A DNA stretch of 64,000 nt, from the IMG/VR virus record IMGVR_UViG_3300038393_001148; one strand, given 5' to 3'. The translations under genes and the position numbers were made by a program. Shown piece by piece: positions 27,892 to 34,294 of this stretch (within the stretch, counting starts at the first letter, position 1; each line of letters starts with the position of its first letter). The notes beneath the pieces were generated by a model. That model worked only from the letters and a program-made list of their open reading frames with translations, ran no database searches and had not been told where the DNA came from. This stretch comes from a virus (taxonomy: Duplodnaviria > Heunggongvirae > Uroviricota > Caudoviricetes).

Positions 27892-27964
27892 GGTCCGGTA
27901 GCTCAGGGGAAGAGCGCCAGCCGTTATAAGCTGGAAGTCGTTGGTTCGAATCCAACCTGGATCA
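27892..27964 (+). tRNA. tRNA with an 8-nt anticodon loop (CGTTATAA; Ile(TAT)-like)
   Basis: Acceptor GGTCCGG/CTGGATC, D arm, CCAGC/GCTGG stem, canonical T arm. Confidence 0.7.
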
Positions 27965-28022
27965 CGGTCTACTCGACCTTAAGGAGTGGCACATCATCCG
28001 AATCCCATGAACGTATCTTGTC

Positions 28023-31386: not shown

Positions 31387-32469
31387 ATGGACAACAATAT
31401 GCTGATCACACAACAGGAGCACAACGCCTACTCCTATCCGGCTCAGAGGTTTAATGAGACGGTAGAAGAGCTAAACCTCCCGCATCAGAGATACGCTCAG
31501 TGGAGCACTGATGCAGAAAACGCCGATCTTCAGGTGTATGTGGAGAGAGGCTTTTCGAGTCGTTACAACGACGACAATAGTCTCTACGTTGCCTTTACGG
31601 AGAGCGATAGCAAGGCTGCGGGTTGGATCCAGCTTCAAAGCGGTTTGGTATACGTCACCGTTGCGGCGCAAACGGCTGAGCGAGCGGAGTCCCTGCTAGC
31701 GGACATTGAGAATGTCATTCCTCGCTCCGAGGAGACGGACACGGAGTCCGAGGTTTCCATCGGCTTTTGGTCGCTCGGTCCGCAAGGTCCGAGCCGCATG
31801 AACCGGCGTATTGCGGTCCCAGTTTGGGACGAGATCAAGAATAATTACACCAAGGATGTCAAGGAGTCGCTTGAGTCCTTGATGGAGATTAAGAGCGGCA
31901 AGGATCTTGGCGACGGTCAGCTTATTCTCTGGCAGGGAGAGCCCGGCACGGGCAAGACCTATGCCCTGAGATCGCTAGCCTCGGCATGGCACAAGTGGTG
32001 TGAGTTTCATTACATCACCGATCCAGAGCAGTTCTTTGGAAGTCATTCCAACTACATGTTGAATGTCATCCTCCACGACAGCAACCCATATGGGGTGGAG
32101 GAGGAGCCAAGGTGGAAACTCCTCATTCTGGAGGATTCCGGCGAGCTATTGCGCGCCGATGCCAAGCAGGTCGTCGGTCAGGCGCTTTCTCGCTTGCTCA
32201 ACACGGTTGATGGTCTGATCGGTCAGGGCCTCCGTCTCTTGGTTCTCGTCACCACTAACGAGGAGATGGAAAAGCTCCATCCCGCTGTGTCCCGTCATGG
32301 GCGCTGCCTCCAGCAGGCAGAGTTTGGCCCCTTGACAAGGGACGAGGTTCGCGCTTGGATGGACGAGAATGACATCGAAGGCGATGTCGTCCCGATGTCG
32401 GCAGCTAACCTCTACGCCTTGAAGAACGGCAAGAAGGCTGAGGAAAAGCGCCTCGTAGGCTTCCACTAG
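31387..32469 (+). CDS. AAA+ ATPase (DUF5925-like N-terminus)
   Basis: GEPGTGKT, LILED, RLLNTVDGLIGQG, TTNE and PAVSRHGRC motifs. Confidence 0.85.
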   Translation: MDNNMLITQQEHNAYSYPAQRFNETVEELNLPHQRYAQWSTDAENADLQVYVERGFSSRYNDDNSLYVAFTESDSKAAGWIQLQSGLVYVTVAAQTAERAESLLADIENVIPRSEETDTESEVSIGFWSLGPQGPSRMNRRIAVPVWDEIKNNYTKDVKESLESLMEIKSGKDLGDGQLILWQGEPGTGKTYALRSLASAWHKWCEFHYITDPEQFFGSHSNYMLNVILHDSNPYGVEEEPRWKLLILEDSGELLRADAKQVVGQALSRLLNTVDGLIGQGLRLLVLVTTNEEMEKLHPAVSRHGRCLQQAEFGPLTRDEVRAWMDENDIEGDVVPMSAANLYALKNGKKAEEKRLVGFH

Positions 32470-32475
32470 CAGTTT

Positions 32476-32549
32476 GCGGCTGTAGCTCAGTTGGCTAGAG
32501 CGTCTCCTTGCCATGGAGAAGGTCGAGGGTTCGAATCCCTTCAGCCGCT
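32476..32549 (+). tRNA. tRNA-Gly(GCC)
   Basis: Cloverleaf, loop TTGCCAT. Confidence 0.93.
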
Positions 32550-32606
32550 TTGTTTGGCATCTTTTGGGAAGGGTATTCCTAGTACAAACCCTTTTCGAAA
32601 GGATTT

Positions 32607-32765
32607 ATGTCAGTCTTACTTTGGATACTCGGTATTATCCTCGTCATATTTGGCTTCTTCTGGATTCTCGGAGGATCGCTGCTATATGGCATCATCGCCA
32701 TTGTGATAGGCCTACTCCTAATGGGCTATCTCGGCGGTGGGTTTGGATATACCCGACGATTGTAA
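32607..32765 (+). CDS. Small two-TM membrane protein (52 aa), resembling actinobacterial GPGG-motif proteins
   Basis: Manual translation MSVLLWILGIILVIFGFFWILGGSLLYGIIAIVIGLLLMGYLGGGFGYTRRL; GAAAGGA SD. Confidence 0.65.
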   Translation: MSVLLWILGIILVIFGFFWILGGSLLYGIIAIVIGLLLMGYLGGGFGYTRRL

Positions 32766-33260
32766 TCATCAGGGCAACCGTATGCAGTAACTTGGGCTCC
32801 CGAGAGGGAGCCCTTGTTATTGAGGAAAGTCCGGACACTGCGCGAGCCACTGAGGCTGGAACCTCAGCAGGGACGGGTAACAATGGAGGGAGATCGCTGT
32901 CGTCCGTACCCCTTAAGTGGGACGACTTAATGCTCATGTGGGAGCGGCGTCACTTGTACCTCAGCCGACAGTCAAGCGGTGCAACCTCAAGCTGGTCAAG
33001 GGCATGACCTAGGTAGAGGGCAGTCCTTCGGGACCAACGCATTGGTAGTAGAAGATACGATCCACAAATTAGCTACACGTCATTGGCTGCGAACGGCCAC
33101 TCCGGTTACTAAGAGTGGGATGACGGGGCCAGGGTGGAGAATCGGGAATCCCTGGATGCGTTGAGATGGATATACGGATCGCAGGTAGTAATAGGTAGAG
33201 GCAGGCATCACGTCGCTACCTAGCGTGTAGAACAGAATCCGGCTTAAAGCCAGATGATTA
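32763..33260 (+). ncRNA. rnpB: RNase P RNA (divergent, about 498 nt)
   Basis: P4 strands GAGGAAAGTCCGG (32822) and ACAGAATCCGGCTTA (33232); P1 TAATCATC/GATGATTA; P2 CCGTAT/ATACGG. Confidence 0.88.
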
Positions 33261-33276
33261 CTGACACGTAAGTGTC

Positions 33277-33564
33277 GTGAAGTCCCTATGGGCGACCATT
33301 CAGGACAATCCTGTCTTATTCAGGAGGATAAACGGGTGGCTCACCGTGGTTTGGTTCATTGGGGCCATTCCAATTTGTTTGTTCTTAGCAAACTCGGTTC
33401 CATTCTTGGTGTTCATCTCCGTTTATGCCGTAGTGACGGGCCACCTTTCTACTTGGCAGGCCGCGAACGTAGAGGTACGCCAAGAGGAAGAGTCTCAAAA
33501 GCGAGACGATGAAGCTCCTGAGCGTATCGAGAAGAAGGTCGAGCAATTGAACAAGCAGGTGTAA
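33277..33564 (+). CDS. Membrane protein, two TM helices plus an acidic/basic tail
   Basis: 95 aa, GTG start. Confidence 0.6.
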   Translation: MKSLWATIQDNPVLFRRINGWLTVVWFIGAIPICLFLANSVPFLVFISVYAVVTGHLSTWQAANVEVRQEEESQKRDDEAPERIEKKVEQLNKQV

Positions 33565-33569
33565 CACTT

Positions 33570-33640
33570 TGGGGAATGAGGTAACGGCAGCCTGCGAGGT
33601 TTTGGCCCTCGTCGTCCTGGTTCGAATCCAGGTTCCCCAG
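33570..33640 (+). tRNA. tRNA-Gln(TTG)
   Basis: Cloverleaf, loop TTTTGGC. Confidence 0.88.
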
Positions 33641-33682
33641 CTTTCAGCTAGATAATCAAGAAGTCCGAGAGGTAACCTATGA

Positions 33683-34294
33683 ATGGGTTACCTTAACGGC
33701 CGACTTCCATCAGCAGTTCTTGCGTCCATCCCTGGTGGACGCCTGCGTAGGGATGCGGCCAAGGCATTCAACGCTATGAATGCTGAGTCCGAAGCCCGCT
33801 TCGGAGTCACGCTGCGGCCTACGGGTAGGATGTCGTCCTACAGGACGTTGAATGAGCAGCGTTATCTCTACAACCTGTACCTCCAGGGTAGAGGGAACCT
33901 AGCCGCCGTTCCTGGCACATCCAACCACGGTCTGGGCCTTGCCGTTGACTTGGCAACGCATCAGATGCGTGATATAGTAGACCAAATAGGCGCAAAATAC
34001 GGCTGGGCCAAGAGATGGTCAGACGCGCCTTCTGAATGGTGGCACATTAAGTGGAGGAGCGGAGTTTGGAACGGAAAGGTACCAGATAAATACAAAACCC
34101 TAAAGCGGGGACAGACTGGGCCTTCGGTTCTACGAATGAAGAAGGCGATGAGGAAACACGGACTTCAGCAATTCAATGCCTACACTCCGTTTTTCGATAA
34201 GCGGACGGAGGCTGCACTAAAGCGGCTTCAGCATCGTCATGGGTTGAAGGCAGACGGGATCTGTGGACCTAAAACATGGTCTCTGATCACCTAG
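33683..34294 (+). CDS. Peptidase M15 (D,D-carboxypeptidase-like) with a PG-binding domain; endolysin-like
   Basis: SYR..EQ, PGTSNHGLGLAVD and EWWH motifs; C-terminal LKADGICGPKTW. Confidence 0.88.
   Translation: MGYLNGRLPSAVLASIPGGRLRRDAAKAFNAMNAESEARFGVTLRPTGRMSSYRTLNEQRYLYNLYLQGRGNLAAVPGTSNHGLGLAVDLATHQMRDIVDQIGAKYGWAKRWSDAPSEWWHIKWRSGVWNGKVPDKYKTLKRGQTGPSVLRMKKAMRKHGLQQFNAYTPFFDKRTEAALKRLQHRHGLKADGICGPKTWSLIT

What the first reader, a model, noticed from the sequence alone, without database searches (positions are those of the whole stretch)
32763..33260. Phage-encoded RNase P RNA, oversized, with an unrecognisable specificity domain
Seen: P1, P2 and both P4 strands are clear, and the length is about 498 nt. 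I cannot find the usual S-domain conserved strings (AGUGCAACAG-like CR II, GGUAAGAG-like CR III). There is an extra GGCTGGAACC-capped hairpin after P4/P5 and a long multi-helix region closed by CAACGCAT/ATGCGTTG. Established: CR II/III form the interdigitated T-loops that read the tRNA elbow. Inference: altered substrate range, possibly suited to the non-canonical tRNA-like and stem-closed RNAs in this island.
Basis: partly seen in the sequence, partly recalled or inferred. Interest (0 to 1): 0.75.

Follow-up and report, generated by a model that had tools for sequence, protein, structure and literature searches.

The report
Expanded, remodelled phage RNase P RNA
An uncultured soil phage with 39 tRNA genes carries its own 500-base copy of the tRNA-trimming ribozyme RNase P: the catalytic half is intact, but the two universal tRNA-elbow-reading motifs are replaced by a different conserved module, and activity is untested.

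Summary
Window 32762-33261 (+) is a P1-closed 500-nt RNA with the bacterial class A RNase P catalytic core: CR I, the P4 pseudoknot with its bulged U, J5/15 AA, P15 with GGU, CR IV and CR V. It scores only 25.4 bits against RF00010 (cut-off 100), and the model skips the whole specificity region.

It is not a one-off. Syntenic copies lie between tRNA-Gly(GCC) and tRNA-Gln(UUG) in related phage contigs, and at least 22 related RNAs of 208-500 nt sit in tRNA arrays. P1, P2, P4, P5 and P15 are kept by compensatory changes.

The specificity region is present but remodelled. The canonical CR II/III strings are absent. In their place, flanking a variable P12, is a covarying helix (GAGG/CCUC here) around a conserved loop, 5' GAG / 3' UUGNA. 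This module occurs in 13 of 22 RNAs against 1 of 2000 shuffles.

The extra length lies mostly in the catalytic half: a 129-nt insert after P18 with invariant loops, and a P19-like hairpin.

No phage RnpA was found, and expression and catalysis are not shown. This scan has flagged miniature phage RNase P RNAs on other DNA before. I found no paper that describes any.

The parts
32762..33261 (+). Whole RNase P-like RNA gene, 500 nt, closed by P1
   Evidence: P1 search. RF00010 full-model hit at 32766-33261, 25.4 bits, E 7e-6.
32762..32775 (+). P1 5' strand (GUAAUCAUC, then GGC). The stop codon of the upstream 52-aa ORF (32763-65) lies inside it.
32778..32783 (+). P2 5' strand CCGUAU, followed by J2/3 GC
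   Evidence: The register is the same in 19 of 21 family members.
32786..32821 (+). P3, an extended hairpin (AGUAAC..GGGCUCCC-GAGA-GGGAGCCC..GUUAUU)
   Evidence: L028 shows compensatory changes (GGGCCACC/GGUGGCUU).
32822..32834 (+). CR I, GAGGAAAGUCCGG; P4 5' strand AAG(U)CCGG with the bulged U
32836..32841 (+). P5 5' strand CACUGC (pairs with 32976-81)
   Evidence: It covaries: CAUUGC/GUGAUG in L028, CACUUCG/CGAAGUG in L036, GCAUCC/GGAUGC in L039.
32850..32867 (+).
   Evidence: The equivalent hairpin is present in relatives with different stems and loops (GCUAA, GCGA, UCGGAA).
32874..32892 (+). 5' side of the derived CR II-position module: P10/11a CGG (32874-76), 9-nt bulge GUAACAAUG (32877-85), P11b GAGG (32886-89), loop GAG (32890-92)
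32893..32953 (+). P12-position variable, probably branched expansion (61 nt)
   Evidence: Relatives in a metatranscriptome replace exactly this segment.
32954..32967 (+). 3' side of the derived CR III-position module: loop UUGUA (32954-58), P11b CCUC (32959-62), AG, P10/11a CCG (32965-67)
32976..32984 (+). P5 3' strand GCGGUG, then C and the J5/15 AA (32983-84)
32985..33021 (+). P15 (CCUC 32985-88 / GAGG 33016-19) enclosing the P16/17 hairpin (32994-33009) and the L15 GGU (33012-14)
   Evidence: P15 covaries: UCUC/GAGA in L031, CCUU/AAGG in L036.
33023..33034 (+). P18 hairpin GUCC-UUCG-GGAC
   Evidence: by eye. Stems differ in relatives (GUCA/UGAC, GCCCUC/GAGGGC, GCGU/ACGC). My shuffle test was inconclusive.
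33035..33163 (+). Insert after P18 ('P18a' module), closed by CAACGCAU/AUGCGUUG. It contains the invariant GUAGAAGAUACGAUCCA (33048-64) and a hairpin (33129-34 / 33150-55) with the invariant 15-nt loop UGGAGAAUCGGGAAU (33135-49).
   Evidence: Shared with L031 and L039. Smaller hairpins occupy this site in other members.
33163..33177 (+). CR IV, GAGAUGGAU, followed by the P2 3' strand AUACGG (33172-77)
33180..33227 (+). P19-like hairpin inserted in J2/4
   Evidence: This is a variable insertion site: a hairpin is present in L031, L036, L163 and L174 and absent in most others.
33232..33246 (+). CR V, ACAGAAUCCGGCUUA; P4 3' strand CCGGCUU
33249..33261 (+). P1 3' strand (GCC, A, GAUGAUUAC)
32476..32549 (+). 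tRNA-Gly(GCC), the conserved upstream neighbour of the RNA
33570..33641 (+). tRNA-Gln(UUG), the conserved downstream neighbour of the RNA

Best explanation
This is a phage-encoded RNase P RNA, the catalytic subunit of the enzyme that removes 5' leaders from tRNA precursors. It derives from a bacterial class A RNA and is kept under selection inside the phage's tRNA gene array. Most likely it is transcribed with the array, folds on its own P1-closed scaffold, borrows the host RnpA protein (inferred; no phage copy was found), and cleaves the phage's own closely packed, CCA-less tRNA precursors through the conserved P4/CR I/CR IV/CR V active site, J5/15 and L15. In this lineage the substrate-measuring half has been remodelled. 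The interdigitated CR II/CR III motifs that read the tRNA elbow are replaced by a Watson-Crick helix (P11b) plus a small conserved asymmetric loop (GAG / UUGNA) at the base of P12. The catalytic half has gained a conserved 129-nt insert and a P19-like hairpin. Shown here: homology, family conservation, covariation of the core and of the new module, and genomic context. Inferred: expression, catalysis, use of host RnpA, and what the remodelled parts do.
For: - RF00010 matches over its full length at E 7e-6. CR I is identical to the consensus, CR V is near-identical, and CR IV, J5/15 AA and L15 GGU are present.
- Synteny: the RNA lies between tRNA-Gly(GCC) and tRNA-Gln(UUG), after a DUF5925 AAA gene, in the window, L028, L031/L032, L036 and L039. 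The adjacent AAA proteins are only 45-53% identical.
- 21 RNAs are delimited by P1 helices that all differ in sequence. P1, P2, P5 and P4 helices are stronger than shuffled controls, with mean scores 22.7 vs 16.1, 17.3 vs 11.1, 15.7 vs 10.2 and 14.8 vs 9.8.
- P4 exists in 13 distinct, fully paired versions, always with a one-nucleotide bulge (U in 19 of 21).
- P15 covaries.
- The derived module NNGG.GAG...UGNA.CCNN occurs in 13 of 22 RNAs against 1 of 2000 shuffles. Its pairs covary: GC 11, AU 1, CG 1 at one position and AU 9, UA 4 at another.
- The insert hairpin stem shows compensatory changes in 4 of 6 pairs around an invariant loop.
- RF00010 hit boundaries in relatives coincide with my P1 boundaries, at 39-94 bits.
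- All copies sit in dense tRNA arrays, several on IMG/VR viral contigs, including a 160-kb genome rated 100% complete.
- From the literature: the C-domain alone can cleave pre-tRNA, with reduced rate and substrate affinity, and Pyrobaculum RNase P RNA lacks nearly the whole S-domain (PMC4919922).
Against: - The score is far below the Rfam cut-off (25.4 vs 100 bits).
- The canonical CR II/III strings are absent and P13/P14 are missing, so elbow recognition as known cannot operate unchanged.
- CR IV deviates from the consensus at two positions.
- L15 keeps GGU, the CCA-binding motif, although only 1 of 39 tRNA genes encodes CCA.
- No RnpA gene was found in the ORFs tested here or in a complete relative, so a protein partner is assumed, not shown.
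- No promoter-like site lies nearby.
- There is no direct evidence of transcription, processing or catalysis.
- The cultured relatives Pupper and Mangeria lack a detectable copy.
Confidence: 0.68

Rival explanations
1. Specialised enzyme, a sharper form of the first reader's idea. The RNA is an active RNase P whose remodelled specificity region and invariant-loop insert redirect it to particular substrates. These could be the phage's CCA-less tandem tRNAs, its tmRNA, or the tRNA-mimic and stem-closed RNAs of the island. Alternatively the new parts could recruit a phage protein in place of elbow recognition.
For: - The CR II/III positions carry a different but strongly conserved module.
- The insert has a 15-nt loop and a 17-nt stretch that are invariant across phages whose neighbouring AAA proteins are only about 45% identical.
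- The island holds many non-canonical RNAs according to earlier notes.
- tRNAs abut each other with spacers of 0-5 nt and lack CCA.
Against: - There is no substrate data.
- The island's tRNAs score as ordinary tRNAs (47-74 bits), so a changed elbow reader is not obviously needed.
- Many relatives do without the insert (L028, L150, L036) or without most of the specificity region. These parts are therefore dispensable for whatever the family does in common.
Confidence: 0.15
2. Decoy or regulator. The RNA binds host RnpA, or host pre-tRNAs, without productive catalysis, and so diverts the host's tRNA maturation during infection.
For: - The RnpA-contacting region (P2/P3, CR IV, CR V) is kept while the substrate-reading motifs are altered.
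- There is no phage RnpA.
Against: - Elements needed for chemistry and substrate docking, rather than for protein binding alone, are conserved. These are the P4 bulge, J5/15 AA and L15 GGU, kept through 13 different P4 versions.
- The location inside the phage's own tRNA array fits processing of phage transcripts better.
Confidence: 0.09
3. Decaying relic of a captured host rnpB gene with no present function.
For: - Very low Rfam score.
- Large insertions.
- Loss of the canonical CR II/III strings.
Against: - The position and structure are conserved across diverged phages, with compensatory changes in P1, P2, P3, P4, P5, P15 and the new module.
- The inserts themselves contain invariant loops.
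Confidence: 0.03

Closest known systems
Bacterial class A RNase P RNA (Rfam RF00010; E. coli M1 RNA, T. maritima P RNA)
   Same: - Order of helices: P1-P2-P3-P4-P5 ... P15/16/17-P18-P2'-P4'-P1'.
- CR I, CR IV and CR V.
- Bulged U in P4.
- J5/15 AA.
- L15 GGU.
- A P8-position hairpin, a P10/11 stack and a P12-position arm.
   Different: - 25.4 bits against a cut-off of 100.
- No canonical CR II/III strings, which are replaced by helix P11b plus a GAG/UUGNA loop.
- No P13/P14.
- P18 is capped by UUCG, not GNRA.
- A 129-nt conserved insert lies between P18 and CR IV, and there is a P19-like hairpin.
- It is encoded by a phage inside a tRNA array.
- No cognate RnpA gene was found.
Pyrobaculum minimal RNase P RNA (Lai et al. 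2010, as summarised in PMC4919922)
   Same: It is a precedent that an RNase P RNA can lose or radically alter the specificity domain and keep only the catalytic domain.
   Different: It is archaeal and works with several archaeal proteins, and its S-domain is almost entirely deleted. Here about 150 nt of ordered specificity region remain, and the RNA is larger, not smaller, than normal.
Diverged RNase P RNAs of CPR bacteria (Lui et al. 2021, PMC8172020)
   Same: They score below Rfam thresholds, need manual refolding, and lack P13, P14, P18 and sometimes P12.
   Different: They are cellular, essential single copies. No replacement module at CR II/III and no P18a-type insert is described for them.
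Phage miniature RNase P RNAs noted earlier in this scan (156-250 nt; unpublished as far as I could search)
   Same: - Same genomic niche (phage tRNA arrays).
- Same catalytic core.
- Sub-threshold RF00010 hits.
- Members recovered here include L160, L178, L113 and L130.
   Different: The window copy is the largest found here (500 nt). It keeps a full-length but remodelled specificity region and adds conserved peripheral modules, rather than being stripped down.

Membership tests
Bacterial class A RNase P RNA (RF00010) | P4 long-range helix formed by CR I and CR V, with a bulged U | tested here: met
   AAG(U)CCGGA / UCCGGCUU in the window. There are 13 distinct paired versions in 21 relatives, with a bulged U in 19.
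Bacterial class A RNase P RNA (RF00010) | CR IV followed by the P2 3' strand; P1 and P2 closing helices | tested here: met
   GAGAUGGAU followed by AUACGG. The P2 register is identical in 19 of 21 members. P1 and P2 score better than shuffles.
Bacterial class A RNase P RNA (RF00010) | J5/15 adenosines and a P15 internal loop with GGU, which binds the substrate 3' end | tested here: met
   GCAA-CCUC ... UAGGUA-GAGG. P15 covaries in L031 and L036.
Bacterial class A RNase P RNA (RF00010) | CR II and CR III (T-loop motifs, ACAGARA-like and GUGAAA-like) flanking P12 in the S-domain | tested here: not met
   Neither string is present, and the model leaves the region unaligned. Those positions hold GAGG.GAG and UUGUA.CCUC.
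Bacterial class A RNase P RNA (RF00010) | P13/P14 arms | tested here: not met
   There is no sequence between the CR III-position loop and the P10/11 3' strand.
Bacterial class A RNase P RNA (RF00010) | P18 hairpin with a GNRA loop | tested here: inconclusive
   A hairpin sits at the right place, but its loop is UUCG. Its covariation was seen by eye only, and the shuffle test was uninformative.
Bacterial class A RNase P RNA (RF00010) | Score at or above Rfam's gathering threshold (100 bits) | tested here: not met
   25.4 bits. No hit in the gathering-threshold run.
Bacterial class A RNase P RNA (RF00010) | Site-specific 5' cleavage of pre-tRNA, stimulated by RnpA | not testable with these tools
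   This needs biochemistry. No RnpA was found in the tested window ORFs or in a complete relative.
Phage tRNA-array RNase P-like RNAs, GAG/UUGNA subgroup | Helix NNGG/CCNN enclosing 5' GAG, a P12-position insert and 3' UGNA | tested here: met
   Window: GAGG/CCUC, GAG, UUGUA. Present in 13 of 22 RNAs against 1 of 2000 shuffles.

The most novel reading that the evidence does not exclude
The remodelled specificity region (helix P11b plus the GAG/UUGNA loop in place of the universal CR II/III double T-loop), together with the invariant-loop insert after P18, is a new recognition device. It would let a virus-encoded RNase P select its own precursors (CCA-less tandem tRNAs, tmRNA, tRNA-mimic RNAs) or dock a phage factor. 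On this reading a phage has re-engineered substrate choice in one of the most conserved ribozymes known.
Probability: 0.18. Interest if true: 0.88.

Novelty: new variant of a known kind. Interest (0 to 1): 0.7.

Why it matters
RNase P RNA is regarded as a universal cellular housekeeping ribozyme, and CR II/III are among its five universally conserved regions. A virus-borne lineage matters for three reasons.

1. It extends the list of translation-related functions that large phages carry themselves, alongside tRNAs and tmRNA.
2. It offers a natural series, from canonical through remodelled to miniature, for asking what the specificity domain is needed for.
3. It shows that standard annotation misses these genes, because every divergent member found here scores below the Rfam cut-off.

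The compact relatives and this expanded one are short enough to test directly in vitro.

Tried and rejected
- **blastn against deposited phages.** The RNA and a 7.8-kb structural region gave no match.
- **Window-specific strings in IMG/VR.** Exact scans found none. The AAA protein search in IMG/VR also found none.
- **The only IMG/VR hit with the same long P4-P4 spacing (L027).** It is an ordinary class A RNA at 257 bits and is unrelated.
- **MAFFT plus RNAalifold.** On five full-length homologues the 3' halves were misaligned and the consensus is unusable. On ten specificity regions only P5 was recovered. I therefore used anchor-guided helix searches with shuffles.
- **My shuffle test for P18.** It was badly designed and is uninformative.
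- **First regex for the GAG/UGNA module.** It missed members, and I replaced it (then).
- **Sequencing runs.** No RNA holder was listed for the 1.3-kb stretch. One rhizosphere metatranscriptome holds a few words. When laid, its short contigs come from relatives about 90% identical, cover 32767-32892 and 32954-33023, and replace 32893-32953 with other sequence. This shows that close relatives exist and that P12 is variable. It does not show transcription, and uncovered flanks are not evidence.
- **Search for RnpA.** The RNR-motif scan, Pfam on 10 basic or flanking small ORFs and PF00825 in three viral records all found nothing. Only part of the phage genome lies in the window.
- **Other tRNA-maturation enzymes.** None was found among 20 further ORFs.
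- **Promoter scan.** None was found.
- **Pfam on the L036 ORF.** No hit.
- **Canonical CR II/III in the orthologue L039.** I read these strings by eye only; the Rfam model does not align them either.

Full report
**What the window is.** The 64-kb window is part of an uncultured tailed phage. It encodes a DnaE-type polymerase, RecA, primase, helicase, ThyX, RNR, large terminase, portal and endolysins. The portal is about 38-42% identical to those of Bxz1-like cluster C mycobacteriophages and Gordonia phage Pupper, which suggests an actinobacterial host. Neither the RNA nor a 7.8-kb structural region has a DNA match among deposited phages. The phage is found in soil and rhizosphere DNA metagenomes. 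Thirty-nine tRNA genes lie on the + strand between 19008 and 36144.

**Checking the observation.**
- At Rfam's gathering thresholds nothing but tRNAs is reported.
- With permissive settings RF00010 (bacterial class A RNase P) matches 32766-33261 over the full model, at E 7e-6 but only 25.4 bits against a cut-off of 100.
- The alignment places P1, P2, P3, CR I (GAGGAAAGUCCGG, identical to the consensus), P5, J5/15, P15 with GGUAG, CR IV, and CR V (ACAGAAUCCGGCUUA).
- It skips three stretches: 140 nt where the specificity domain belongs, 140 nt at the P18 position, and about 50 nt between P2 3' and CR V.
- A search for a closing helix gives P1 = GUAAUCAUC/GAUGAUUAC, so the RNA spans 32762-33261 and is 500 nt long.
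- No canonical CR II or CR III string is found.

The description is therefore accurate.

**It is a conserved gene, not a chance resemblance.** I found relatives through the adjacent DUF5925 AAA ATPase (31387-32469). The same arrangement recurs in L028, L031/L032, L036 and L039: AAA gene, tRNA-Gly(GCC), the RNA, tRNA-Gln(UUG), then an endolysin. The neighbouring AAA proteins are only 45-53% identical.

A family-specific pattern around P15/L15 pulled further copies from JGI metagenomes and IMG/VR. In all, 21 RNAs could be delimited, and a 22nd (L317) came later. Nearly all are closed by a perfect P1 helix of 6-14 bp, commonly 8-14, with a different sequence in each. Total lengths run from 208 to 500 nt.

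Anchor-guided helix searches beat shuffled controls, as mean helix scores:

| Helix | Observed | Shuffled |
|---|---|---|
| P1 | 22.7 | 16.1 |
| P2 | 17.3 | 11.1 |
| P5 | 15.7 | 10.2 |
| P4 | 14.8 | 9.8 |

P2 always sits in the same register. P4, the heart of the active site, occurs in 13 distinct, fully paired versions. Examples are AAG(U)CCGGA/UCCGGCUU, AGG(U)CAGGA/UCCUGCCU, AU(U)UCGGGG/CCCCGGAU and AGG(U)ACGGG/CCCGUCCU. A one-nucleotide bulge is always present, and it is U in 19 of 21. P15 covaries as CCUC/GAGG, UCUC/GAGA and CCUU/AAGG.

RF00010 finds most relatives at 39-94 bits, with boundaries that match my P1 boundaries. A few hit only the archaeal model RF00373, and L031 hits neither. 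None reaches the cut-off. The window copy, at 25.4 bits, is among the most divergent.

**The specificity region.** Between P5 5' (32836-41) and P5 3' (32976-81) lie about 135 nt with an ordered layout that the relatives share.
1. A hairpin at the P8 position (32850-67). Its stem differs among relatives, and in several its loop is GCUAA or GCGA, like P8 of ordinary class A RNAs. It is therefore not an extra element.
2. An outer helix, P10/11a. It is CGG/CCG here, GCGG/CCGC in L028, GAUGUA/UACAUU in L031, GUAG/CUAC in L071, CAUUU/GAAUG in L163 and UGCAA/UUGCG in L317.
3. An inner 4-bp helix, P11b. It is GAGG/CCUC here, AAGG/CCUU in L058, GUGG/CCAC in L130, L136 and L174, and CUGG/CCAG in L113.
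4. A conserved asymmetric loop, 5' GAG and 3' UUGNA, at the base of a variable P12-position arm. That arm is 61 nt here and 10-157 nt elsewhere.

The whole module is present in 13 of 22 RNAs but in only 1 of 2000 shuffled specificity regions.

In ordinary class A RNAs these two positions, on either side of P12, hold CR II and CR III, which contact the D- and T-loops of tRNA (PMC4919922). By eye, some relatives still carry ACAGAGA and UGAAAC there (L049, L178, L120 and the syntenic L039). The Rfam model does not align that region in L039 either.

My reading is that the canonical double motif has been converted in this lineage into a Watson-Crick helix plus a small loop. UUGNA could still form a single T-loop-like turn. 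That last point is inference only.

**Where the extra length comes from.** It comes mostly from the catalytic half.
- After P18 (GUCC-UUCG-GGAC, 33023-34) comes a 129-nt insert (33035-33163) that is shared with L031 and L039.
- Within the insert, a hairpin stem shows compensatory changes in 4 of 6 pairs (CCAGGG/CCCUGG, GUCAGG/CCUGAC, CCGGGG/CCCCGG).
- That hairpin's 15-nt loop, UGGAGAAUCGGGAAU, is identical in all three, as is the 17-nt stretch GUAGAAGAUACGAUCCA.
- Other members have a small hairpin at this site or nothing.
- A P19-like hairpin (33180-33227) fills J2/4, and P3 is extended.

I have no tested explanation for the invariant loops. A tertiary contact, a loop-loop interaction or a protein or RNA partner are all possible.

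**Context that bears on mechanism.**
- Only tRNA-Trp encodes a 3' CCA.
- Several tRNAs abut each other with 0-5 nt between them, so cleavage by RNase P at the downstream tRNA would also define the upstream 3' end.
- No RnpA homologue appears among the ten most basic or flanking small ORFs of the window, nor in three viral records with relatives, one of them a 160-kb genome rated complete. The positive controls for that search did ring.
- No other tRNA-maturation enzyme was seen in 20 further ORFs.
- No promoter-like site lies within 32300-33800, which fits co-transcription with the array.
- A rhizosphere metatranscriptome contains short contigs from relatives about 90% identical. They cover the RNA from P1 to the GAG loop and from UUGUA to P15, and they replace exactly the P12-position arm. 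This confirms that the arm is variable. It is at best a weak hint of expression.

**The wider picture.**
- Full-size canonical class A RNase P RNAs (181-280 bits) also sit inside dense tRNA arrays on IMG/VR contigs of 114-497 kb.
- Miniature forms near 200 nt are common.
- Phage-borne RNase P RNAs therefore span a range from canonical to stripped-down. The window's copy is a third kind: expanded and remodelled.
- The cultured relatives Pupper and Mangeria have no detectable copy.
- Earlier notes of this scan had already flagged miniature phage RNase P RNAs on other genomes, so the family is not a first sighting within the scan.
- Four literature searches and the 2024 review of the field (PMC11143913) gave no description of a phage-encoded RNase P RNA.
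- The closest published parallels are the reduced RNAs of CPR bacteria (PMC8172020) and the Pyrobaculum minimal form (PMC4919922). The library is limited, so prior description elsewhere cannot be excluded.

**Verdict.** This is a phage-encoded RNase P RNA with an intact, selected catalytic core. Its specificity region is not lost or random: it is remodelled into a conserved alternative module. Its size comes chiefly from conserved insertions in the catalytic half. Catalysis, expression, the protein partner and any change in substrate range remain untested.

Noticed in passing
L036:2103-2742: Between tRNA-Gly and the complete 271-nt RNA lie two things. The first is a leftover 5' fragment of another RNase P-like RNA (P2, J2/3 and CR I), most similar to L058's. 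The second is a 181-aa ORF with CxxC pairs and a ...DFDH...N...CANCH motif, whose 3' end overlaps P1 of the complete RNA. This looks like gene replacement by a free-standing homing endonuclease. The ORF has no Pfam hit.
   Followed up: partly
window 32607-32765; also L028, L031:7217-7384 and L150: A small hydrophobic ORF (52 aa here) sits directly upstream of the RNA in several relatives. In the window and in L150 its stop codon lies inside the P1 5' strand.
   Followed up: no
L001, L005, L006, L023, L024, L025 (IMG/VR contigs of 114-497 kb): Full-size canonical class A RNase P RNAs (181-280 bits, above Rfam's cut-off) are embedded in dense tRNA arrays of very large viral contigs.
   Followed up: partly
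L130:7910-8338 (-) and L130:3205-3567 (-): The contig that carries a 238-nt RNase P-like RNA also carries a GOLLD RNA (158 bits) and a tmRNA, so several large structured RNAs travel together with the tRNA array.
   Followed up: no
window 33048-33064 and 33135-33149: Two stretches within the post-P18 insert are identical in the window, L031 and L039, although the surrounding stems have changed. Partial complementarity between them (CGAU/AUCG, GAUCC/GGAAUC) hints at a loop-loop contact, which cannot be tested because nothing varies.
   Followed up: partly
window 31387-32469: A DUF5925-AAA ATPase gene lies within the tRNA island and is the conserved upstream neighbour of the tRNA-Gly and RNA unit. 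Homologues occur in many phage contigs and in Gaiellaceae and other bacterial MAGs.
   Followed up: partly
window 27892-27965: ARAGORN reports a tRNA with a four-base anticodon (ttat), that is, an 8-nt anticodon loop. Rfam scores it as an ordinary tRNA at 60.7 bits.
   Followed up: no
window 32794-32821: The P3 hairpin followed by UUGUUAUU matches an intrinsic-terminator pattern. This is probably coincidental, because the U-rich run is the P3 outer strand.
   Followed up: no
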